Shown here: piece by piece, positions 6,223 through 27,025 of the stretch
Numbering within the stretch: position 1 is the first letter of the stretch
Layout of the letters: each line of letters begins with the position of its first letter
The notes under the pieces: generated by a model
Databases searched by the model: none
The model's input: only the letters and a program-made list of their open reading frames with translations
Told to the model about the DNA's origin: nothing
From: Phycisphaeraceae bacterium
GTDB lineage: Bacteria > Planctomycetota > Phycisphaerae > Phycisphaerales > Zrk34
Direction of reading: 5' to 3'
Assembly (NCBI GenBank): GCA_041674345.1
Contig: JBAYVY010000001.1
Location: forward strand, 1 to 41,537
DNA length: 41,537 nucleotides
Program-made: the position numbers and the translations under genes

Positions 6223-6352
6223 GAGAATGACGAAATCCGAATGACGAATGAATATCCAAATTCCAATGTTCAAACCGCGGACGTAATCGGAAGTTTGGAA
6301 TTTTGAATTTGAAATTTCATTCGTCATTCGGATTTCGTCATTCGTCATTTCC
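6223..6352. repeat. hairpin element, AATGACG family, copy 1
   Basis: 27-bp perfect arms AATGACGAAATCCGAATGACGAATGAA / TTCATTCGTCATTCGGATTTCGTCATT. Confidence 0.9.
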
Positions 6353-6434
6353 TCAACCATCGTACCGACTGCTCGGCGACAGGCAAGGGGCGACCCCTAC
6401 GCATTCCACGCCCGCCCCTGTTATCATTGACCCC

Positions 6435-7725: not shown

Positions 7726-9228
7726 ATGTCAATGCTCACGAACATTCTCTTGGTCATATGCGTTCTCCTGGCGGTTCTTCTGGTTGTCATGGTTTGGAAG
7801 TTACTGCAACGCCGATCCGACACATCGACGGGAGTTGACCTCGCGCCCAGATTCGACGAACTGGCAAAAGGGCTGGACCGTTCGGAAAAAACTTTGAAAG
7901 ATGAACTTTCGCGGAACCGTGAAGAAGCCGCAACCTCTTCACGCCAACTCCGGGAAGAGGTCAGCAAATCCATCGGCGGCTTGGTCGAAAGTGTGCTCGC
8001 TCAAATCCGGGCCTTCGGGGAGTTCCAAACCAAGCAATTGGAAATATTTGCGAACCAATTGAAAGAGACCGGGCAATTGACGGCGGAAAAACTCGATTCC
8101 GCCCGTACCGCCAATGCTGAACAACTAAAGAACTTCGGCGAAACACTTAATGGATTCCAGAAACAACAGCATGATGCTCTGGCCGCCCATATCAAGAATC
8201 TGACCGATGCCAACGAAAAGCGTTTGGAATCGCTGCGAGTGACGCTCGACCAAAGACTTCAGCAGATACAGGAAGATAACTCCAAGAAACTCGAAGCAAT
8301 GCGGGCCACCGTGGATGAAAAGTTGCAGGGAACCCTTGAAAAGCGATTGGGGGAAAGCTTCAAACTGGTCAGCGAGCGGCTTGAACTGGTGCATAAGGGA
8401 CTCGGCGAAATGCAATCGCTCGCCAACGGCGTCGGCGATCTGAAACGTGTGCTGACCAACGTCAAGACGCGGGGGAATTGGGGAGAAATCCAACTCGGTA
8501 CCTTGTTGGAGCAAATGCTGACGCCCGATCAATATGAGCAAAACGTGGCGACAGGTGACACATCCGAAAGAGTCGAATACGCGATCAAGCTGCCTGGAAA
8601 ACACGAACATCCCGGCGATTTCGTGTGGCTTCCCATTGATGCCAAGTTTCCGACGGAAAGCTACCAGCGATTGGTGGAAGCACAGGAAGCCGCCGATGTC
8701 GTTGCGACGGCGCTGGCCATGAAAGAACTGGAAGCGAGGGTCAAGGGGTGCGCCAAGGATATCTGCACCAAATACATCAACCCGCCCAAGACCACTGATT
8801 TCGGCATTATGTTTCTTCCAACGGAAGGTCTGTATGCGGAAGTTATTCGCCGCGCCGGACTGGTTGAATCCATTCAGCGGGAATACCGCATCGTGATAGC
8901 CGGTCCAACAACTCTAGCGGCTTTGTTAAACTCGCTGCAAATGGGGTTCCGAACACTCGCCATCGAAAAACGCAGCAGCGAAGTATGGGAATTACTTGGC
9001 GGAGTAAAAACTGAATTCGGAAAATTTGGAGATGTCATCGGAAACATCCAAAAGAAACTTTTGTCTGCATCCAATGAATTCGATCAAGTCGCAGTACGAA
9101 CACGTGCGATCAATCGCAAGCTGCGGGGCGTGCAACAACTGAATGACAATGAATCCTTGCAAATTCTTGGGGAAACCGACGGCATCGCAAGTGCGGAGGA
9201 TACGGATTCTGACGCCGGGGGCAATTAA
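7726..9228 (+). CDS. rmuC: DNA recombination protein RmuC
   Basis: 500 aa. N-terminal TM helix, long coiled-coil, then the conserved RmuC core (RGNWGEIQLGTLLEQ..., FVWLPIDAKFP, FGIMFLPTEGLY). Confidence 0.88.
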   Translation: MSMLTNILLVICVLLAVLLVVMVWKLLQRRSDTSTGVDLAPRFDELAKGLDRSEKTLKDELSRNREEAATSSRQLREEVSKSIGGLVESVLAQIRAFGEFQTKQLEIFANQLKETGQLTAEKLDSARTANAEQLKNFGETLNGFQKQQHDALAAHIKNLTDANEKRLESLRVTLDQRLQQIQEDNSKKLEAMRATVDEKLQGTLEKRLGESFKLVSERLELVHKGLGEMQSLANGVGDLKRVLTNVKTRGNWGEIQLGTLLEQMLTPDQYEQNVATGDTSERVEYAIKLPGKHEHPGDFVWLPIDAKFPTESYQRLVEAQEAADVVATALAMKELEARVKGCAKDICTKYINPPKTTDFGIMFLPTEGLYAEVIRRAGLVESIQREYRIVIAGPTTLAALLNSLQMGFRTLAIEKRSSEVWELLGGVKTEFGKFGDVIGNIQKKLLSASNEFDQVAVRTRAINRKLRGVQQLNDNESLQILGETDGIASAEDTDSDAGGN

Positions 9229-9239
9229 TTGCCCCCGCC
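9214..9239. repeat. 26-nt palindrome, copy A (GCCGGGGGCAATTAATTGCCCCCGCC)
   Basis: Perfect 20-nt core GGGGGCAATTAATTGCCCCC. Its central TTAA provides TAA stops for rmuC (+) and the phosphodiesterase gene (-). Confidence 0.95.
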
Positions 9240-10145
9240 GATGATCTGCGTCACCGGTTTGCCGTCGATGTTTTTATCGCAGGGGATGCGCATGAACCAA
9301 CACGCGGTGGCGAAGGTGTCTTCGGTGTTGACGATGAGTTTTTCGTCGAGGGTCAGGTCGTAGTCCGCTTTCACACCGGGGCCGGTGGCGATCCAGGGAA
9401 TGTGCCGGCTGCGGGGGTCGTCGGGGCCGTGGGTTTTGCCTTGCCCGCCGTGGTCGGCGGTAACGATGACGAGGGTTTGCGACAATACGTTGGCCTGTTT
9501 CATGGCGTCCAGCACGCGGCCCAATTGTTTGTCGGCGTTGGCGATGACCTGCAACTGTTCGTGCGACCCCCAGCCGAACTTATGGCCGAACGTATCGGCA
9601 TCGGGGAAGTGGACGAACAGCACCCGGGGCTGATGTTCGGCGATGACCTTGACCGCCGCGTCGCCGACTTCTTCGTCGCCGCCCTTGGTCTGATCGGGCA
9701 GGTAAACGAAGTCGAGGGTGCCGGGTTTGTTGAGGGCGGTGAACTTGGATTTACCGGCGATCATCGCGGTGGAGTAACCGGCTTTTTTCGCCAGTTCAAA
9801 CAATGTGGGAAACGCGGGGTATTTCAGTTCTTCGGCGGGGATGTCTTTGTTCCAGGTGACGCCGTGCCGTTCGGGCGTCACGCCGGTCAACATGCTGGTG
9901 TGCGAGGGCAGCGTGACGGACATGGCGGTGGTGCGTGCCCACATGGTGAAGGTTCCCTCGCGCATCAGGCGTCGGAGGACGGGGGTGTCGGCGCGCAGCA
10001 TCGCGTCGGGGCGCATGCCGTCGATGCTGACGATGAGAACGCTTCTGTTCGCCCCCGGAAGTTTGGGTTCGGCATCCTGCGCCATGAGGGAGGTGGTGAA
10101 GGTCAGCACCACCGCCGCCAGTAACATCGTGAATCGTTTGAGCAT
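9225..10145 (-). CDS. secreted alkaline-phosphatase-superfamily phosphodiesterase / nucleotide pyrophosphatase
   Basis: Trimmed to the ATG at 10145, giving signal peptide MLKRFTMLLAAVVLTFTTSLMAQD. Motifs SIDGMRPD, TLPSHTSMLTG, DTFGHKFG, TADHGG. Confidence 0.8.
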   Translation of the reverse strand: MLKRFTMLLAAVVLTFTTSLMAQDAEPKLPGANRSVLIVSIDGMRPDAMLRADTPVLRRLMREGTFTMWARTTAMSVTLPSHTSMLTGVTPERHGVTWNKDIPAEELKYPAFPTLFELAKKAGYSTAMIAGKSKFTALNKPGTLDFVYLPDQTKGGDEEVGDAAVKVIAEHQPRVLFVHFPDADTFGHKFGWGSHEQLQVIANADKQLGRVLDAMKQANVLSQTLVIVTADHGGQGKTHGPDDPRSRHIPWIATGPGVKADYDLTLDEKLIVNTEDTFATACWFMRIPCDKNIDGKPVTQIIGGGN

Positions 10146-10205
10146 GATGCCGCGCTCCTGTGAAGTCAATGGATATAGCATGGATATAGCATATCCAACT
10201 GTGCG

Positions 10206-11132
10206 GTGCGAAATGTTAGAATCTGGTTGAAACGCCTGTGGAGTATCGCATTGAAACTGCAATGTCCGGCCAAATTGAATCTCGCCCTGTCCACCGGCTC
10301 GCCGCGGCGGGGGCAATTAATTGCCCCCGCCCCCGCCCCCGGAAGCGCCGGATTTCACCCCATCGCGTCGTGGATGGTGACGGTGAATCTGTTCGACGAC
10401 CTGACGGTGGAACCAAGCGAGGGTGACAGCACGTTCGACATCGCGTGGGCGGACGATGCGCCGCAGCCGTCGCCGATCGACTGGCCGGTCGAGGAGGACT
10501 TGATCTTCCGGGGGCATCAGTTGATCGAGCGTCATGTCGGGCGGAAGTTGCCGGTGCGTGTGACGCTGCGCAAGCGCATCCCGGTGGGGGCGGGCATGGC
10601 GGGCGGATCGACGGACGGCGCGGGCATGTTGAAGGCGGTGAACGAGGTTTTCAATCTGCGATTGCCGCGACAAACGCTGATTGATTTCGCCATGCAACTG
10701 GGCAGCGATTTGGCGTTCTTTTTTACTTCCGGGGGCGCGTTGGTGACGGGGCGTGGTGAGGGATTGGAGCCGGTGCCGGCGAGGGCGATGGATTGGGTGT
10801 TGGTGTTGCCGCCGCTGCACTGCCCGACGGGAGCGGTGTATCGGAAGTTTGATGAGTTGTCGCCCTATGCGAAAGTGAACGAGCAAGCCGTGCGTGAGGT
10901 GATCGCGGGCCGGCGTGAGCCGTTCAACGATTTGGGAGCGGCGGCGCTGGCGGTGGAACCGCAACTGGCGGCGTTGCGTGATGAACTGCAAAAGAAATTG
11001 GGGCGCACCTTGCACATCACCGGCAGCGGCGCGGCGATGTTCATTGTGGCGCGCGATAGCAAGGATGCGACGCGGTTGGCCGCACAAATCACGGAAGTGC
11101 CGGTGCGTGTGGCGAGGGCGGGGGATTGCTAA
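10206..11132 (+). CDS. ispE: 4-diphosphocytidyl-2-C-methyl-D-erythritol kinase
   Basis: N-terminal PAKLNLAL, GHMP-kinase motif IPVGAGMAGGSTDGA, DLAFFF. GTG start at 10206 is uncertain. Carries an in-frame palindrome insertion. Confidence 0.85.
   Translation: MRNVRIWLKRLWSIALKLQCPAKLNLALSTGSPRRGQLIAPAPAPGSAGFHPIASWMVTVNLFDDLTVEPSEGDSTFDIAWADDAPQPSPIDWPVEEDLIFRGHQLIERHVGRKLPVRVTLRKRIPVGAGMAGGSTDGAGMLKAVNEVFNLRLPRQTLIDFAMQLGSDLAFFFTSGGALVTGRGEGLEPVPARAMDWVLVLPPLHCPTGAVYRKFDELSPYAKVNEQAVREVIAGRREPFNDLGAAALAVEPQLAALRDELQKKLGRTLHITGSGAAMFIVARDSKDATRLAAQITEVPVRVARAGDC
10306..10331. repeat. 26-nt palindrome, copy B (GGCGGGGGCAATTAATTGCCCCCGCC)
   Basis: Perfect palindrome inside ispE, read as RRGQLIAPA. 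Confidence 0.95.
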
Positions 11133-12300: not shown

Positions 12301-12473
12301 ATCGCGGGCGAGCCAGGCGGAGTTTGCTCGAACCCCAGTAACAGGTGGGTGCGTCAAGTCCTGTCCGGGCCTTCCACTCGTAGGTGGCTTGACCGTCGCA
12401 GGTCTTTGGACGCTCCCTGGGGGTCCTTATCGGTTCGAGCAATAAATGTCCGCGACTGGCTCGAACCCGCGAT
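12301..12473. ncRNA. candidate structured RNA or MITE-like element (unclassified)
   Basis: 31 bp of nested long-range pairing: 12301-12308/12466-12473, 12310-12316/12456-12462, 12317-12321/12449-12453, 12324-12334/12432-12442. An alternative 9-bp helix is 12432-12440/12459-12467. Strand undetermined. Confidence 0.35.
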
Positions 12474-17670: not shown

Positions 17671-17855
17671 TGAACCCCGGAACTTCCGGGGGTTCCGGGG
17701 GTTCCGGGGATCGGCCCGCCCGCTTCAGCGGGCGGGGAGTGTTCCGCACCTTCGCGGTTCTGATCTTCGTGACGCCCATCGTGGGACTCACCGGCACACT
17801 GTACGATGTCATTCGTTACATCCATGCCATTCCTTGGCCGCCCTGTTCAGCTTGA
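17667..17855 (+). CDS. possible small membrane protein (62 aa)
   Basis: ATG overlaps the stop of the MBL gene (ATGA). One hydrophobic helix FAVLIFVTPIVGLTG. The N-terminus is encoded by a 3x TTCCGGGGG tandem. Weak support. Confidence 0.3.
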   Translation: MMNPGTSGGSGGSGDRPARFSGRGVFRTFAVLIFVTPIVGLTGTLYDVIRYIHAIPWPPCSA

Positions 17856-19728: not shown

Positions 19729-19866
19729 GGAAATGACGAATGACGAAACTCGAATGACGAATGAAATCCCAAATTTCAAACACCAATCCGATGAACGCAC
19801 CGGATTCTTGAAACATTGGAATTTGGAACTTGATTCGTCATTCGGACTTCGTCATTCGTCATTCGA
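19729..19866. repeat. hairpin element, AATGACG family, copy 2
   Basis: GGAAATGACGAATGACGAAACTCGAATGACGAATGAAATCCCAAATTTCAAA ... TTGGAATTTGGAACTTGATTCGTCATTCGGACTTCGTCATTCGTCATTCG. Confidence 0.9.
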
Positions 19867-19967
19867 CCTCCAACCAACTTAAGTCACGGCGGCCCCGCCC
19901 CCTGGCCCCCTCCCGGATCATTGGGCAGCCCCACGGCAACCGCATCTCCTTTTATTCACTACAACGG

Positions 19968-22011: not shown

Positions 22012-22163
22012 TAATGACGAATGACGAAATCCGAATGACGAATCAATGACGAATGCCCAATGACGAATGTCGAAACGGAAGAAACTCGGCGAGGCGCGGT
22101 TCTATTTTGAACATTGTCATTTGGAGTTTCATTCGTCATTCGGATTTCGTCATTCGTCATTTC
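22012..22163. repeat. hairpin element, AATGACG family, copy 3 (inside the pnt operon)
   Basis: Left arm holds five AATGACGAA(T/A) units. Right arm TTTCATTCGTCATTCGGATTTCGTCATTCGTCATTTC ends 2 nt from the pntAA stop. Confidence 0.9.
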
Positions 22164-22164
22164 T

Positions 22165-23313
22165 TCACGCTCCCATCGCCTGTTTCACGCGCTCATGCAC
22201 GACCTGCCCGTCCCTGGTGACCAGCACACCCCTGGTGATCTCGTCTTCGAGATTCCACTGGATTTCCTGGGTCTTGCCGATCAGGTGTTGAATGAGCTTC
22301 ACGACGTTGCCGGCGTACATGGTGCTGGCGTCGTAGGCCACGTCGCTGGCGATGTGCAGATGGCCGACGAGGGTGACGCCGTGCTTGACGACGGTTTTGC
22401 CGGGTTCGGTCAGTTCGCAGTTGCCGCCGCGCTCCGCCGCCATATCAACGATGACGCTGCGGGGCGCCATGCGTTTGACCATGTCTTCGGTGATGAGTTT
22501 GGGCGCGGGCCGACCGGGAATCAACGCCGTGGTGATGACCACATCGGAATCCGCGACGACATCGGCGACCAGCGCTTTCTGTTTGGCCTGTTGTTCGGGG
22601 GTGAGTTCCTTGGCGTAGCCGCCTTCGCCCTCAGCCATCGCTTCGGGGACCATGACGAACTTGCCGCCGAGCGATTCGACCTGTTCCTTGGTGGCCGGAC
22701 GAACGTCGGTGGCGCTGACCGCCGCGCCCAGTCGCTTGGCCGTGGCGATCGCCTGCAAACCGGCGACACCGGCGCCGATGATGAACACCTTGGCGGGTTT
22801 CAATGTCCCGGCGGCGGTCATCATCATCGGAAAAATCTTCGGCAGATGGTCCTGCCCGATCAACACCGCCCGATACCCCGCCAGGTTCGCCTGACTGGAC
22901 AGCGCGTCCATCGCCTGGGCGCGGGTGGTGCGGGGAATCAGCTCCATCGCCAGCAGCGACACGCCCCTGGCCGCCATCGCCTTGGTTTGTTCATGCGCCA
23001 GCAGCGGCTCGGCGTGGCCGATCACGACCTGACCGGCTTTCATATGCTGAAGGTCGTCGAAGCCGCGGTCGGGGTTCGCGCCATAGGCGCGCACCTGCAC
23101 CAGCACGTCGGCTTGTTGAATCAGTTGGGCGCGATCCGCCACGACCGTCGCGCCTTTGGCCTGGTATTCGCTGTCGGGGAATCCCGCCTCGTCACCGGCG
23201 CCGGCTTGGACCTGAATCTTCAGGCCGGCTTTAATCAGCGGCGTCAAGGACGCCGGGGTGAGAGCGACGCGACGTTCGCCGTCGCACGTTTCTCGGCAAA
23301 TGCCCACAATCAT
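22165..23313 (-). CDS. pntAA: NAD(P) transhydrogenase subunit alpha part 1
   Basis: Trimmed to the ATG at 23313 (MIVGICRETCDGERRVALTP). Alanine-dehydrogenase/PNT fold with GAGVAGLQAI Rossmann motif. Confidence 0.9.
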   Translation of the reverse strand: MIVGICRETCDGERRVALTPASLTPLIKAGLKIQVQAGAGDEAGFPDSEYQAKGATVVADRAQLIQQADVLVQVRAYGANPDRGFDDLQHMKAGQVVIGHAEPLLAHEQTKAMAARGVSLLAMELIPRTTRAQAMDALSSQANLAGYRAVLIGQDHLPKIFPMMMTAAGTLKPAKVFIIGAGVAGLQAIATAKRLGAAVSATDVRPATKEQVESLGGKFVMVPEAMAEGEGGYAKELTPEQQAKQKALVADVVADSDVVITTALIPGRPAPKLITEDMVKRMAPRSVIVDMAAERGGNCELTEPGKTVVKHGVTLVGHLHIASDVAYDASTMYAGNVVKLIQHLIGKTQEIQWNLEDEITRGVLVTRDGQVVHERVKQAMGA

Positions 23314-23601: not shown

Positions 23602-26085
23602 TCATTTCCCCTCATCGCCCGTCGCCTTTCGCTTCTCGTCGTCTTCCAGCACGGCGCGGGTCGCCGCCGCGAAGGCGTTGATCGTCATGTCTCCGCTGCG
23701 AAGGCCGGCGTTCAATATCGGATCATCGACCTTATGCACCTGCGTGGCCAGCATCGTCAACTGCACCAGCGGGTGAGGGGTCTGCGCCGCGGCGGACAGC
23801 ACGTCGGCCAGTGGTTTGACCACCGTGTCATTCGGCGGGATCAGCGACACGAGGTATGCCTGTTGCACCGGCGAATAACCGGGGAACGCGGCAACCAACG
23901 CCCGCGTGATGTCGTCATCGGGGCGGGGGAAATTCATTTCCCCCGCCGGCTCGGACAGCACGGCGACGAGCATGGCCATCGCACGCATCGCCGCGGCCGG
24001 ATCGGAACTGCCCAGTTCGATGATTTTCTGTTGGACGGCCTGCTGGGTGATCGGCACATTGCGGCGGACCAGATCGCGCAGGAACGCGGTGGAGCCGAGC
24101 ATCCCCGGCGCGAACGCCCCGCCGGAGGCGACGGTCGGATTGAGGATCGCCAGTTCGCCGATCTGCACCCTGGCCCACGGCGAATCGGTCAGCAGCATGC
24201 CCAGGTCCGCGCTGTCCAATCGCACGGGGATCGACAGCGACCGCAACGGCTCGATCCGCAACCGGCGGGACACATCCATCACCATCGGCGACAACGGAGA
24301 CGCCGGCCGCAAATTCACCGACACCGACGGCGAAAGGAACAGCCGCGTCGGTATCGAACCGTCCGGCCCCATCGACAACGGATAAGTGTTGACATTGCGA
24401 AGTTCCAGCACGGCGGTGATTGGCTGACCGAAGTCGTACCGCATCATCGGACAGACCCATCGCACCTGCACGAAGCTCATCGGATCGGCGGCCATCTGTC
24501 GCAGCGCGGGGGGCACGGCGGCGAACACGGCGGCCACCTGCCGCGCCTCGGCCGGAGCGGGCAGGGGCAGGGACATGCGGCGAAGCTGCGCCGCGGCGGT
24601 CATGCCGAATATGTCCGTCGGCGATTGAAGCACGACCTGACGCAGATGTTGGATCGCCCGATCCTTCGCATCGGACTGCGCCAGTTCGGCCATCGCCAGA
24701 CCGAGCGCCGCGCGCGGATCGGCGTCCGCCAGGGGCGTGAGCAGTTGCGTGGCGATGTCGAGTTGGCCGGTGCGCATCGCCAGCCAGCCGCGCATCAGCG
24801 GCAGTTGAAGGTTCGCCGCATCGGGCTGCGTCGCCAGTTTGTCGAGCAGCGCGGCGGTCTGATCGGTGTTCTGATCGCAGAGGAGCTGCGCCCAGACCTG
24901 TGCGACGGCGGGGGCAATGAATTGCCCCCGCCCCAGTTCGGCGTTCAATCGGTCGTCCAGCCGCTTGAACGCGACGGACAGATCGGCGGAGGTTCCGTTG
25001 TTGGCCAGGATCGCCGCCCGCAGCATCAACGAGTCAAGCGGAGGCCAGTCCGGGTTCGCGGGAGGGGGTGCCTTGTCGGACTTCGCTTCCGGGGGCGGGG
25101 GCGATGAATCGCCCCCGCCTTTGGGGGCGGGGACCGGGGGCGGGTCGAGTTGTGCCAGCAGCGATATCGCATCGCTTCCGCGACCGGCCCCCCACAACGC
25201 CAGCGCCCATTCGTGCAGCAGCGAGATCGAGCCGGTGCGACGGTTGGCGGTGTCGATCCGCGCCGCGCCGGCGAACCAATCGGCGGCATCGTTGTATTGC
25301 GCCATCGACATGAGCATCTGCCCGATGGCCGCATGAGCGCGACCGTCGGCCGGGTCGGCCTGGAAGAGCGTCAACATCGCCGCGGCCCGCTCCTGGGCCG
25401 TGCTTTTTTCACTGGCGCTGAGTACCCGCAACGATTCGGCGGCCGCCTGTTTGTTCGTCGAATCCAACTGAAGCGCCATCGTCAGCAGGCGACCGTATTC
25501 GCCGGGCTGCCCCAGTTCGGCCGCGAGAATCGCCGCCCGCAGCGCCACGCGACTGCGCAGCGGAGCGCTGAAATGTTCGGCCGCCGGTCCTTCGGTGATT
25601 TTCAACAGGTACGCCAGTCGCAGATCGGCGGTCTGCATTTTTGCCGTGAGCAGGTCGATCAGCCGCAGTTGTGCCGCGTCGTCGGCCGGCGCCAGCCGCA
25701 TGTATTGTTTGAGCGCGTCGATCTGCGCGTCGCGGTCGTCGCAAAGCGACTGCGCCTCGGCGGTCAGCAGCCATCGCTCGGCGTCCGTGCCGTCCAAAGC
25801 GTTGGCCTGTTCGAGCAACAGGCGCGCCTGCGTGATGCGGGCCGGTTGGGGCTGGGCCTGGTCCGCAGACACCAGCGCCCGCCGCGCCAGCATCGTCAGC
25901 CGGTGCGCCAACATCCGCGACGCGGTGGGATACGACGCGGCGTCCGGCGGGGTTCCTGGAGCATCCGGGGTTCCGGGGGCATCCGGAGGGACGGCCTGTG
26001 CCGGCGCGATGCCCGTCGCCATCGCGATCAGCAGCAGCATTATGAACGCGGTCGATCGATTGGTTTTCACTGACAGACCCTTCAC
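23602..26085 (-). CDS. large secreted TPR-like/helical-repeat protein, function unknown
   Basis: 827 aa. GTG start at 26085 (alternative ATG at 26040) gives signal peptide ...LLLIAMATGIAPAQA. Alanine/leucine-rich helical repeats. Contains two palindrome copies in frame. Confidence 0.6.
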   Translation of the reverse strand: MKGLSVKTNRSTAFIMLLLIAMATGIAPAQAVPPDAPGTPDAPGTPPDAASYPTASRMLAHRLTMLARRALVSADQAQPQPARITQARLLLEQANALDGTDAERWLLTAEAQSLCDDRDAQIDALKQYMRLAPADDAAQLRLIDLLTAKMQTADLRLAYLLKITEGPAAEHFSAPLRSRVALRAAILAAELGQPGEYGRLLTMALQLDSTNKQAAAESLRVLSASEKSTAQERAAAMLTLFQADPADGRAHAAIGQMLMSMAQYNDAADWFAGAARIDTANRRTGSISLLHEWALALWGAGRGSDAISLLAQLDPPPVPAPKGGGDSSPPPPEAKSDKAPPPANPDWPPLDSLMLRAAILANNGTSADLSVAFKRLDDRLNAELGRGQFIAPAVAQVWAQLLCDQNTDQTAALLDKLATQPDAANLQLPLMRGWLAMRTGQLDIATQLLTPLADADPRAALGLAMAELAQSDAKDRAIQHLRQVVLQSPTDIFGMTAAAQLRRMSLPLPAPAEARQVAAVFAAVPPALRQMAADPMSFVQVRWVCPMMRYDFGQPITAVLELRNVNTYPLSMGPDGSIPTRLFLSPSVSVNLRPASPLSPMVMDVSRRLRIEPLRSLSIPVRLDSADLGMLLTDSPWARVQIGELAILNPTVASGGAFAPGMLGSTAFLRDLVRRNVPITQQAVQQKIIELGSSDPAAAMRAMAMLVAVLSEPAGEMNFPRPDDDITRALVAAFPGYSPVQQAYLVSLIPPNDTVVKPLADVLSAAAQTPHPLVQLTMLATQVHKVDDPILNAGLRSGDMTINAFAAATRAVLEDDEKRKATGDEGK
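24907..24932. repeat. 26-nt palindrome, copy C (GGCGGGGGCAATGAATTGCCCCCGCC)
   Basis: One central substitution relative to copy B. In frame in the TPR-like gene as GRGQFIAPA. Confidence 0.9.
25094..25119. repeat. 26-nt palindrome, copy D (GGCGGGGGCGATGAATCGCCCCCGCC)
   Basis: Same GC clamps, with centre CGATGAATCG. In frame in the TPR-like gene as KGGGDSSPPP. Confidence 0.8.
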
Positions 26086-26905: not shown

Positions 26906-27025
26906 TAATGACGAATGTCGAATGACGAAGGAATGACGAAGGAATGACGAAGGAATGACGAATGTCGAATGACGAATGTCCAAACGCGGAGTTCTCATTG
27001 TTTCGTCATTCGTCATTCGTCATTC
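26906..27025. repeat. hairpin element, AATGACG family, copy 4 (asymmetric, with 11-mer tandem)
   Basis: The long left arm includes GAATGACGAAG repeated about 4x (26920-26963). Short right arm TTTCGTCATTCGTCATTCGTCATTC. Confidence 0.85.

What the first reader, a model, noticed from the sequence alone, without database searches (positions are those of the whole stretch)
10306..10331. The same palindrome sits in frame inside the essential gene ispE
A perfect copy of GGCGGGGGCAATTAATTGCCCCCGCC, followed by CCCGCCCCCGGAAGC, is read as RRGQLIAPAPAPGSA. It lies between the conserved N-terminal PAKLNLAL...SPR segment and the GFHPIASW segment. From my knowledge of IspE these two segments are normally almost contiguous (R-x-DGYH). 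The reading phase avoids the TAA. In-frame insertion of a palindromic repeat into coding sequence is the behaviour described for Rickettsia palindromic elements. Here the same 9-residue peptide (RGQ[LF]IAPA) also appears in an unrelated protein (copy C).
Basis: partly seen in the sequence, partly recalled or inferred. Interest (0 to 1): 0.65.

Follow-up and report, generated by a model that had tools for sequence, protein, structure and literature searches.

The report
Translated REP-like palindrome inside ispE
A 26-base perfect palindrome from a dispersed repeat family sits in frame inside the isoprenoid kinase gene ispE of an uncultured Phycisphaerae bacterium and adds a floppy 12-residue loop, a new example of the known habit of small REP/RPE-type selfish hairpins of settling inside working genes.

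Summary
GGCGGGGGCAATTAATTGCCCCCGCC lies at 10306-10331 inside ispE and is read as RRGQLIAPA. With the GCCCCC/CCCCCGGAAG tail it makes the beta1-beta2 loop 12 residues longer than in 30 of the 32 more distant orthologs.

It is one of five copies in the window (none expected by chance). Three lie in one 827-aa TPR gene, each in a different reading phase. One supplies the overlapping TAA stops of the convergent genes rmuC and a phosphodiesterase.

A further 58 copies occur in related Phycisphaerae contigs from landfill and groundwater. About half are inside coding sequence, always in a stop-free phase. Arm variants are mostly symmetric, so the hairpin is preserved.

In a related contig the palindromes flank, and also sit in frame inside, a HUH-Y1 gene. 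Its predicted fold best matches E. coli TnpA-REP (4ER8).

ispE stays under purifying selection (dN/dS 0.2-0.26). AlphaFold models the insert as a disordered loop.

Best reading: a REP-like element family without the usual sequence tag, living mostly inside genes, probably moved by a RAYT-type transposase. It is tolerated only where it stays translatable.

Intragenic REPs and RPEs are already described. This is a new variant of a known kind, of moderate interest.

The parts
10306..10331 (.). Perfect 26-bp palindrome (11-bp stem, 4-nt loop) inside ispE. Read in phase 2 as (R)RGQLIAPA, codons 19-27.
   Evidence: Hairpin energy is -15.2 kcal/mol as DNA and -24.3 as RNA; 0 of 200 shuffles fold as well.
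10332..10346 (+). Tail CCCGCCCCCGGAAGC. With the right arm it forms three GCCCCC hexamers (APAPAP), and it holds one copy of the over-represented word CCGCCCCCGGAAG. Read as PAPGS(A).
   Evidence: (L001 has one hexamer fewer; L003 keeps only this tail).
10251..11132 (+). ispE (4-diphosphocytidyl-2-C-methyl-D-erythritol kinase), 293 aa, carrying the insert as residues 20-33.
   Evidence: Pfam GHMP_kinases_N. Homologs named IspE. PDB IspE hits. AF2 pLDDT 92.6, with only the insert of low confidence. dN/dS 0.26 and 0.195.
9214..9239 (.). Family copy with 1 mismatch at the junction of two convergent genes. Its central TTAATTAA gives the TAA stop of rmuC (9226-9228, + strand) and of the phosphodiesterase (9225-9227, - strand). 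Both proteins end in ..GGN.
   Evidence: The syntenic genome L001 has a different, roughly 125-nt hairpin element and a 135-bp spacer at this site.
7726..9228 (+). rmuC, whose last codons and stop are supplied by the palindrome.
9225..10148 (-). Type I phosphodiesterase/sulfatase-family gene whose C-terminal GGGN and stop are supplied by the palindrome. L001 ends ..IMGDK*.
24907..24932 (-). Family copy with centre TGAA on the + strand, read in phase 2 as RGQFIAPA in the 827-aa TPR-like ORF.
23922..23947 (-). Family copy with a compensated arm variant (GGGGGAAAT/ATTTCCCCC), read in phase 1 as AGEMNFPRP. Its centre is flipped relative to the two orthologous genomes.
25094..25119 (-). Family copy with a compensated arm variant (GGGGGCGAT/ATCGCCCCC), read in phase 0 as GGGDSSPPP. 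This is possible only because its centre is TCA, not TAA. The copy is absent from ortholog L102.
23602..26085 (-). 827-aa TPR-like ORF carrying three family copies, one in each reading phase.
   Evidence: dN/dS 0.27-0.29.

Best explanation
The palindrome in ispE is one copy of a dispersed family of short, REP-like hairpin elements in a lineage of uncultured Phycisphaerae from landfill and groundwater.

The core is a dyad-symmetric 26-mer that folds, as single-stranded DNA or RNA, into an 11-bp G+C-rich stem with a 4-nt loop. It is often followed by GCCCCC/CCCCCGGAAG units.

Copies land both between and inside genes, and selection keeps only those that leave the gene readable.
- In phases 1 and 2 the element has no stop on either strand and is translated as AGA[IM][NH]CPR or RGQ[LF]IAPA.
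- In phase 0 its centre is a TAA on both strands. It then survives only at gene ends, where it supplies the stop, or after the centre has mutated.

In ispE a phase-2 copy plus its tail enlarged the beta1-beta2 loop by 12 residues before the window and L001 lineages split. The kinase stayed functional.

Shown here:
- family membership;
- translation phase;
- a lineage-specific insert;
- purifying selection on the host genes;
- a predicted disordered loop;
- symmetric (hairpin-preserving) arm variation;
- turnover at orthologous sites;
- a TnpA-REP-like HUH-Y1 gene flanked and invaded by the same palindromes in a related genome.

Inferred:
- that this RAYT-type enzyme cuts and rejoins the single-stranded hairpin and so spreads the copies;
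- that arm symmetry is kept by hairpin-templated correction, by conversion between copies, or by selection for the enzyme's substrate.
For: Family and chance: 5 copies in the window against 0 expected. 64 copies in 320 kb of window plus related contigs. Contig depth about 760 at the palindrome against about 10 in the flanks in the source landfill run, with similar excess in two groundwater runs.

Insert in ispE: 30 of the 32 orthologs more distant than P0002/P0003 have no more than 4 extra residues at this loop (25 have the plain PR-x-D-G[YF]H). The window has +12, L001 a decayed copy, and L003 only the tail.

Translation: the N-terminal segment with the catalytic-site motif PAKLNLAL is conserved in the same frame upstream of the palindrome.

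Function kept: dN/dS is 0.26 and 0.195. The AF2 model has pLDDT 92.6, and only residues about 20-33 are low-confidence coil. The fold matches IspE structures at TM 0.76-0.83.

Phase filter: of 32 copies judged internal to coding sequence, 23 are in phase 2, 8 in phase 1, and 1 in phase 0 with its TAA destroyed. Six copies supply stops.

Hairpin maintenance: 18 symmetric against 14 asymmetric variant arm positions. All five window copies fold as 11-bp stems.

Turnover at orthologous sites: both arms changed together in L102, the centre flipped at 23922, presence versus absence at 25094, and in-frame 6- and 24-nt tail indels.

Enzyme link: L062 ORF 5905-6570 matches NCBIfam NF047646 (REP-associated tyrosine transposase) over profile positions 3-145 of 146, E 6e-16 to 3e-17. 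Homologs are named RayT by JGI. The NHYH motif and a Tyr are invariant. The AF2 model's top PDB hit is 4ER8, TnpA-REP bound to a REP hairpin, followed by IS200/IS605 transposases. [quoted passage not shown] A paralog in L015 is flanked by a different palindrome.
Against: No RAYT-like gene lies in the window itself. The link comes from a related organism.

That locus is so dense in palindromes (17 in 9.8 kb) that flanking could be coincidental.

The NCBIfam score (59-63 bits) is below the curated cut-off of 80, and Pfam gives no hit.

No clean empty-site/filled-site pair with defined ends or a target duplication was found.

At two TPR sites the palindrome causes no net length change relative to 38%-identical orthologs. 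'Insertion' is therefore not demonstrated there.

The neighbouring 9-mer TTCCGGGGG has arisen in ispE by point substitutions. A conversion-like or motif-driving process may also act in this genome.

The census is biased: the contigs were selected because they hold a copy. It also rests on a home-made coding-potential score.

No transcript or peptide data are available.
Confidence: 0.75

Rival explanations
1. The palindrome is not mobile DNA. It is a functional site kept or driven by the host: a binding site for a dimeric protein, a chromosome-organising or uptake-type signal, or an mRNA structure. It would spread by point mutation and biased conversion, as uptake sequences or cyanobacterial HIP1 do.
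For: The neighbouring word CCGCCCCCGGAAG is 20-fold over-represented, and in ispE it arose by point substitutions, including non-synonymous ones. Two TPR copies cause no net length change. Arm symmetry is what a dimeric binder would require. Copies persist at orthologous sites through about 11% nucleotide divergence.
Against: The ispE copy is a clear 12-residue gain. Copies differ in presence between close genomes. Arm variants change the sequence while keeping the pairing, which fits a hairpin better than a fixed protein-recognition sequence. A TnpA-REP-like gene is flanked and invaded by the copies. A 26-mer cannot easily arise many times by point mutation.
Confidence: 0.12
2. Each palindrome forms locally from G5/C5-rich low-complexity sequence by template switching or fold-back synthesis during replication. 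No transposase or copy-and-paste step is involved.
For: The copies are perfect dyads. The centre is flipped at an orthologous site. Both arms changed symmetrically at an orthologous site. L003 has the G/C-rich tail but no palindrome.
Against: Dozens of copies in unrelated genes share the same AT-rich centre CAAT-TA-ATTG and the same arm sequence. Local fold-back of unrelated sequence would not produce that. The association with a RAYT-like gene also argues against it.
Confidence: 0.07
3. The palindrome in ispE is not translated. Either the real start lies downstream, or this ispE is a decaying pseudogene and another copy does the work.
For: A strong hairpin sits 55 nt into the ORF. An in-frame ATG lies at codon 42. 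Only 41.5 kb of the genome is visible.
Against: Residues 6-18, including the invariant PAK-N-AL-G-P motif, are conserved in frame with synonymous differences across three genomes. Gene-wide dN/dS is 0.2-0.26. All indels in the insert are multiples of three. Truncation at M42 would remove the first strand and the conserved Lys.
Confidence: 0.04
4. The palindrome is an assembly artefact.
For: Palindromes and repeats can confuse assemblers. Contigs break at the element in Logan unitigs.
Against: The same element stands at the same ispE position in independent assemblies: the NCBI MAG GCA_054605035.1, Logan SRR36271376, and a groundwater run contig. The family is also present in JGI and ENA assemblies.
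Confidence: 0.01

Closest known systems
REP / REPIN elements with their RAYT (TnpA-REP) transposases, including the intragenic REPs of Opitutus terrae, Thauera and others (Di Nocera et al. 2013, PMC3733652; Quentin et al. 2018, PMC6006769)
   Same: A short G+C-rich stem-loop present in many dispersed copies. Several sub-families coexist in one genome. A HUH-Y1 gene is flanked by the repeats in a REPtron-like layout. Copies sit at convergent gene ends and supply stop codons. [quoted passage not shown]
   Different: There is no GT[AG]G or CGTC foot (2 of 128 half-sites each). The core is a perfect dyad, so the two strands are equivalent. About half of the copies, not a small minority, are inside coding sequence. 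The associated protein scores below NCBI's equivalog threshold and has an NHYH motif.
Rickettsia palindromic elements (RPE; Ogata et al. 2000, as cited in PMC3733652 and PMC3184786)
   Same: Palindromic repeats inserted in frame in functional, conserved genes, translated, and thought to sit in surface loops without destroying function.
   Different: RPE-1 elements are 100-150 bp and encode 30-50 residues. They come from Rickettsia, and no transposase is assigned to them. Here the unit is 26-40 bp and encodes about 9-14 residues. No sequence similarity was looked for or expected.
IS200/IS605-family single-strand transposition (IS608, ISDra2)
   Same: The associated protein has the same HUH-Y1 fold. 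The enzyme family recognises DNA hairpins on single strands.
   Different: These palindromes are not the ends of an insertion sequence carrying its own transposase. No target tetra- or pentanucleotide was identified.
Over-represented short words in coding DNA: Neisseria DUS pairs, Haemophilus USS, cyanobacterial HIP1 (from general knowledge)
   Same: High density, occurrence inside genes in tolerated phases, and inverted pairs acting as terminator-like structures at gene ends. The companion word CCGCCCCCGGAAG behaves this way.
   Different: The 26-mer is far longer than such words. It causes length gains and varies in sequence while keeping its pairing.
Coding palindromes and GC-cluster hairpins in organelle genes (e.g. 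Nematomorpha mitochondria, PMC6649704; Volvox organelles, PMC2670323)
   Same: Hairpin-forming repeats tolerated inside protein-coding sequence.
   Different: These are organellar systems. Their repeats are much longer or of different origin, and no RAYT is involved.

Membership tests
REP/REPIN-RAYT system | Short (20-40 nt) sequence able to form a stable stem-loop | tested here: met
   26-nt dyad with an 11-bp stem and 4-nt loop. Energy is -12 to -17 kcal/mol as DNA and -22 to -26 as RNA; 0-1 of 200 shuffles fold as well.
REP/REPIN-RAYT system | Many dispersed copies in one genome | tested here: met
   5 copies in 41.5 kb against 0 expected. 64 copies in 320 kb of related contigs. About 75-fold excess of contig depth at the element in the source run. 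A whole-genome count was not possible.
REP/REPIN-RAYT system | Extragenic location | tested here: not met
   32 of 64 copies are internal to coding-like ORFs, 6 supply stops, 12 are ambiguous at 5' ends, and 14 are non-coding. In the window, 4 of 5 are intragenic.
REP/REPIN-RAYT system | Conserved GT[AG]G (or CGTC) foot at one end of the stem | tested here: not met
   GT[AG]G occurs in 2 of 128 half-site flanks, and CGTC in 2 of 128.
REP/REPIN-RAYT system | A cognate HUH-Y1 (RAYT/TnpA-REP) gene flanked by the repeats (REPtron) | tested here: inconclusive
   Met in the related contig L062/L103. The ORF matches NF047646 (E 3e-17, below cut-off) and its fold best matches 4ER8. It has four flanking and two internal copies. 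No such gene lies in the window. The locus is unusually palindrome-dense.
REP/REPIN-RAYT system | Inverted doublets (REPIN/BIME) | tested here: inconclusive
   Six close pairs lie 26-54 nt apart, mostly in L062. The remaining copies are singletons. Orientation is undefined for a perfect dyad.
REP/REPIN-RAYT system | Cleavage and rejoining of the hairpin DNA by the RAYT | not testable with these tools
   Needs biochemistry.
Rickettsia palindromic elements (RPE) | In-frame insertion in conserved, functional genes | tested here: met
   ispE gains 12 residues against its orthologs, with dN/dS 0.2-0.26.
Rickettsia palindromic elements (RPE) | Element of about 100-150 bp encoding 30-50 residues; Rickettsia lineage; sequence homology to the RPE families | tested here: not met
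   The element is 26-41 bp and encodes 9-14 residues. The host is Phycisphaerae, judging by the names of the closest homologs.
Rickettsia palindromic elements (RPE) | Encoded peptide lies in a surface loop away from the core fold | tested here: met
   In the AF2 model, residues 16-37 are coil between strands 2-15 and 38-55, and the insert has pLDDT about 50. This is a prediction only. The loop directly precedes the conserved G-[FY]-H, which by my recollection of the E. coli IspE structure contacts the cytidine of the substrate.
MITE | Terminal inverted repeats around a core, 70-300 bp, with target-site duplication | tested here: not met
   The element is only two abutted arms, and no direct repeats flank the copies.
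Intrinsic terminator | G+C-rich hairpin followed by a T-run | tested here: not met
   No T-run follows any of the five window copies. The unrelated singleton hits in other phyla do have A/T runs.

The most novel reading that the evidence does not exclude
This could be a REP-type system whose main habitat is coding sequence. The element would be shaped by that life:
- two stop-free phases on both strands;
- a built-in two-way TAA in the third phase;
- arms kept symmetric by hairpin-templated correction.

It would be serviced by a Planctomycetota-wide NHYH family of RAYT-like enzymes. Together with the CCGCCCCCGGAAG word, it would continually remodel protein loops and gene ends, and possibly mRNA structure, in these bacteria. 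On this reading it would be a host-integrated process, not a rare accident.
Probability: 0.15. Interest if true: 0.7.

Novelty: new variant of a known kind. Interest (0 to 1): 0.45.

Why it matters
It shows that a strong 11-bp G+C hairpin can persist for a long time inside a conserved metabolic gene, right next to its substrate-binding motif, without loss of purifying selection.

The family gives a clean natural experiment in how reading phase filters selfish DNA. The same 26-mer is seen translated in two phases, used as a stop in the third, and rescued in that third phase by a centre mutation.

It extends REP/RAYT-like biology to uncultured Phycisphaerae, with an element that lacks the canonical tags.

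For annotation, such copies explain odd low-complexity loops (RGQLIAPA, AGAINCPR), shared C-terminal GGGN tails and overlapping convergent stops in these MAGs.

Tried and rejected
- The exact 26-mer found nothing in the GTDB species-representative genomes.
- The relaxed 20-mer found only single hits in unrelated phyla. Many are flanked by A/T runs and look like ordinary terminators. They are background, not this family.
- Pfam gave no hit for the RAYT-like ORF. A phmmer search of the PDB found nothing meaningful. Only NCBIfam and the fold search connected it to TnpA-REP.
- Rfam has nothing at any palindrome copy; its only hit in the window is 6S RNA.
- The first crude gene caller missed ispE because the upstream ORF over-extends. 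It was replaced by per-copy scoring of flanking coding potential.
- The window's IspE is not on record under the TTG start, so no external gene calls for the window were obtained.
- The runs holding the window are kept only as contigs, so rare insertion or excision variants could not be looked for.
- The RmuC and TPR copies were examined for clean empty sites. The regions are too diverged, or are occupied by another element.
- A 'functional peptide motif' reading was rejected. The same DNA is read in three phases and on both strands, and it also occurs outside genes.
Full report
**1. The observation**

The sequence at 10306-10331 is the perfect dyad GGCGGGGGCAATT|AATTGCCCCCGCC, followed by CCCGCCCCCGGAAGC.

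It lies in a 293-codon ORF (TTG 10251 to 11132).
- The ORF has a GHMP-kinase N domain.
- Its relatives are named 4-(cytidine 5'-diphospho)-2-C-methyl-D-erythritol kinase.
- By sequence and by predicted fold it matches solved IspE structures.

In the gene's frame the palindrome starts at the second base of codon 19. It is read GG CGG GGG CAA TTA ATT GCC CCC GCC, that is (R)RGQLIAPA, so the central TAA is out of phase.

Allowing three mismatches, the 26-mer occurs five times in the window. None is expected in dinucleotide-preserving shuffles.

**2. The five copies in the window**

- **Copy 9214-9239** straddles the ends of two convergent genes. Its centre TTAATTAA provides the TAA of rmuC (9226-9228) and, on the other strand, the TAA of a type I phosphodiesterase-family gene (9225-9227). 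Both proteins end ...GGN.
- **Copies 23922, 24907 and 25094** all lie in one 827-codon TPR-like ORF on the minus strand. Each is read in a different phase: AGEMNFPRP, RGQFIAPA and GGGDSSPPP.
- The phase-0 copy (25094) is readable only because its centre is TCA instead of TAA.
- The arm variants are compensated: CAAT/ATTG, AAAT/ATTT and CGAT/ATCG.
- All five copies fold as an 11-bp stem with a 4-nt loop. Energies are -12 to -17 kcal/mol as DNA and -22 to -26 as RNA, better than all or all but one of 200 shuffles.

**3. Is it an insertion in ispE?**

In an alignment of 35 IspE proteins from Phycisphaerae and Planctomycetota, the conserved CPAK[VL]NLALS.G.P.. strand is normally followed by two residues (x-D) and then G[YFM]HPIASWM.
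- A few lineages have up to four extra residues there, so the loop is permissive.
- The window has 14 residues in place of the two, a net gain of 12.

At the DNA level:
- The closest genome (L001, NCBI MAG GCA_054605035.1; 85% protein identity) has the same element with one arm mismatch (A to G, still G·U-compatible) and one GCCCCC hexamer fewer.
- The next relative (L003, 79%) has no palindrome but keeps ACCCCCGCCCCCGGAA.
- A groundwater contig laid on the window also carries the intact 26-mer, with a frame-preserving set of indels in the tail.

So the element has been in ispE since before these lineages split. L003 either lost it or shows the earlier state.

Evidence that the gene still works:
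- The segment upstream of the palindrome is conserved in the same frame with synonymous differences.
- dN/dS is 0.26 against L001 and 0.195 against L003.
- AlphaFold2 on the alignment gives pLDDT 92.6. Only residues about 20-33 are of low confidence. They are modelled as coil joining strand 2-15 to strand 38-55.
- The model superposes on solved IspE structures at TM 0.76-0.83.

From my recollection of the E. coli IspE structure, the G-[YF]-H that follows the insert contacts the cytidine of the substrate. The insert therefore lies next to the active site. This point was not tested here.

**4. The family beyond the window**

Collection scans:
- The exact 26-mer is absent from the species-representative genome collection.
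- A relaxed 20-mer finds only single, unrelated, terminator-like hits there.
- In JGI metagenomes, about 40 contigs of one sample (Ga0172380, G+C 0.58-0.64) carry the full GGC-GGGGGCAAT-NN-ATTGCCCCC-GCC form.
- These contigs are not the window's loci. They share a second repeat family with it, so they come from a relative.

Census over 320 kb (window, L001, L003 and 33 such contigs):
- There are 64 copies, and 41 have consensus arms.
- The centre is TTAA in 37, TTCA in 14, TGAA in 11 and TAAA in 2.
- Variant arm positions are symmetric in 18 cases and asymmetric in 14.
- Recurring sub-families are GGGGCCAATTAATTGGCCCC, GGGGGCACTTAAGTGCCCCC and GGGGGGAATTAATTCCCCCC.

Location, judged by flanking coding potential:

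| Class | Copies |
|---|---|
| Internal to coding-like ORFs | 32 |
| Ambiguous, near 5' ends | 12 |
| Supply the stop codon of a gene (GGGN*) | 6 |
| Non-coding | 14 |

- Of the 32 internal copies, 23 are in phase 2 (RGQ[LF]IAPA), 8 in phase 1 (AGAxxCPR) and 1 in phase 0, with its TAA destroyed.
- All six stop-supplying copies have the TTAA centre.

One 741-codon membrane/TPR gene, also called as a gene in an independent ENA assembly, carries seven internal copies. Two more lie near its start.

In the landfill run that holds the window, contig depth is about 760 over the palindrome and about 10 beside it. Two groundwater runs show the same pattern.

Caveats: the contigs were chosen because they hold a copy, and the coding calls are my own scoring. 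The proportions are indicative only.

**5. Behaviour at orthologous sites**

The TPR gene was compared in three genomes that are about 89% identical.

| Site | Window | L101 | L102 |
|---|---|---|---|
| 24907 | ...CAAT-TC-ATTG... | centre TA, plus a 24-nt in-frame tail (CCCGGAATCGCGACAGGCCCCGCC) | GGGGCCAATTAATTGGCCCC, both arms changed together |
| 23922 | centre GA | centre TC | centre TC |
| 25094 | present | present | absent |

- The GA/TC difference at 23922 is what an inversion of the hairpin loop gives.
- At the rmuC/phosphodiesterase junction, L001 has a 135-bp spacer filled by a different element of about 125 nt with a long hairpin. The window has the 26-mer and no spacer at all.
- Against 38%-identical orthologs, sites 24907 and 23922 show no net length change. 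Only the ispE copy is a demonstrated gain.

**6. The enzyme link**

In contig L062 (also L103), a 221-codon ORF matches NCBIfam NF047646, 'REP-associated tyrosine transposase'.
- The match covers profile positions 3-145 of 146.
- E is 5.8e-16, or 2.9e-17 once its palindrome-derived insert is removed. The scores of 59-63 bits are below the curated cut-off of 80.
- It has more than 1,500 homologs, mostly about 200 residues long and from Planctomycetota. JGI names many of them 'REP element-mobilizing transposase RayT'.
- An NHYH (HuH) motif and a downstream Tyr are invariant.
- Its AlphaFold model (pLDDT 80) finds 4ER8, E. coli TnpA-REP bound to a REP hairpin, as the only PDB hit below E 1e-3. 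IS200/IS605 transposases follow.

Layout around the gene:
- It has two family copies on each side.
[quoted passage not shown] These form a 28-residue insert that the other 10 aligned family members lack; two of them carry shorter, unrelated inserts in the same loop.

A 59%-identical paralog in L015 is flanked by a different palindrome, CCCGCCCGCTTCAGCGGGCGGG. That palindrome also occurs once in the window, at 17715. This fits the one-enzyme, one-repeat-family pattern of REPtrons.

No such gene is in the window.

**7. How it most likely works**

Shown:
- a dispersed hairpin family;
- translation in stop-free phases;
- supply of stop codons in the third phase;
- a lineage-specific 12-residue gain in a conserved kinase that remains under purifying selection;
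- hairpin-preserving variation;
- turnover between close genomes;
- co-location with a TnpA-REP-like gene.

Inferred:
- The HUH-Y1 enzyme recognises the hairpin on single-stranded DNA and cuts and rejoins it, as described for E. coli TnpA-REP and IS608-type transposases. This would disseminate the copies.
- Selection then removes every copy that breaks a frame or introduces the TAA within a gene.
- Arm symmetry is kept by correction templated on the hairpin, by conversion between copies, or by selection for the enzyme's substrate.
- Tail indels arise by slippage of GCCCCC and CCCCGGAA units and are filtered to multiples of three.

No target site or element ends could be defined.

**8. Comparison with what is known**

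- Di Nocera et al. (PMC3733652) describe REPs entirely inside ORFs in several species, most in Opitutus terrae and Rickettsia conorii. They also describe REP ends that supply stop codons, and REPs abutting both convergent genes.
- Quentin et al. [quoted passage not shown] They also describe an HYH-motif subclass and a Planctomycetes-rich class whose repeats lack the GT[AG]G foot.
- RPEs are the classical in-frame case.

The present family behaves like all of these but fails two defining features of REPs:
- it is not extragenic;
- it has no GT[AG]G or CGTC foot (2 of 128 half-sites each).

It is also far shorter than RPE-1. I therefore call it a new variant of a known kind. It is not a member of the described REP super-families.

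**9. Rivals**

- **A host-maintained binding or uptake-type signal.** The companion 9-mer CCCCCGGAA supports this. It occurs 18 times against 0.7 expected, and in ispE it arose by point substitutions. This does not explain the length gain, the pairing-preserving sequence variation or the RAYT context.
- **Purely local fold-back origin.** This cannot explain the shared AT-rich centre in dozens of unrelated genes.
- **A non-translated or pseudogene reading.** The in-frame conservation upstream of the palindrome and the low dN/dS contradict it.
- **An assembly artefact.** Four independent assemblies exclude it.

**10. Verdict**

The phenomenon is of a known kind, and the particular family and its mostly intragenic life are new. 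Interest is moderate.

Noticed in passing
window 6225-6353, about 19730-19870, 22012-22166, probably 26907-27025; L001 8692-8827; L034, L030, L041, L015, L022: A second repeat family: a long-hairpin element of about 125-130 nt built from AATGACG heptamers (AATGACGAATGACGAAAC.CGAATGACGAATGAAGTTCCAAATTCCAATGTTCAAA ... mirror arm) with a variable loop. All copies seen are intergenic. AATGACGAA is the most over-represented 9-mer in the window (30 against 0.5 expected). In L001 this element fills the rmuC/phosphodiesterase spacer, where the window has the 26-mer.
   Followed up: partly
window, 18 sites, e.g. 5152, 5167, 10052, 10336, 10506(-), 10727(-), 17684-17709(-), 25087(-), 25971(-): The word (CG)CCCCCGGAA(G) occurs 18 times against 0.7 expected, on both strands, about 0.3-1.1 per kb in related contigs and never in unrelated high-G+C loci. 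In ispE two copies arose by point substitutions (Y to F; D to S) without length change. Elsewhere the word comes with in-frame indels: 12 nt in the phosphodiesterase signal region, and 42 nt at 25948-25986 adding PDAPGTPDAPGT. It often abuts the palindrome in a fixed register. Whether it is a target or foot for the palindrome, a decay product, or a separate driven motif is open.
   Followed up: partly
window 17715-17736; L015 2893-2914 and 3781-3835: A third palindrome, CGG-CCCGCCCGCTTCAGCGGGCGGG-GAGTG, is identical including its flanks in the window and next to a second RAYT-like paralog in L015. In the window it is preceded by TTCCGGGGG x2.9 in tandem.
   Followed up: partly
L062 3683-5908(-), the same gene as L103 7783-10008: A 741-residue membrane/TPR protein, called as a gene in an independent assembly, carries seven internal palindrome copies in two phases, sometimes as abutted pairs, with two more near its start. 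Encoded peptides include AGALKCPRPNFRGRGQFIAPAV, RGELIPPA, AGPINWPRP and AGGINSPRRRGHLSAPA. It is the most heavily decorated gene seen.
   Followed up: partly
window 12306-12465 (-): 6S RNA (Rfam RF00013, 48.1 bits, full-length match). This is the only Rfam hit in the window.
   Followed up: no
window 10169-10192: A perfect tandem, ATGGATATAGC x2.2, lies in the roughly 100-bp divergent spacer between the phosphodiesterase gene and ispE. It may be a promoter or operator feature.
   Followed up: no
RAYT-like family (alignments A5, A6): [quoted passage not shown] This loop seems to be a recurrent landing place.
   Followed up: no
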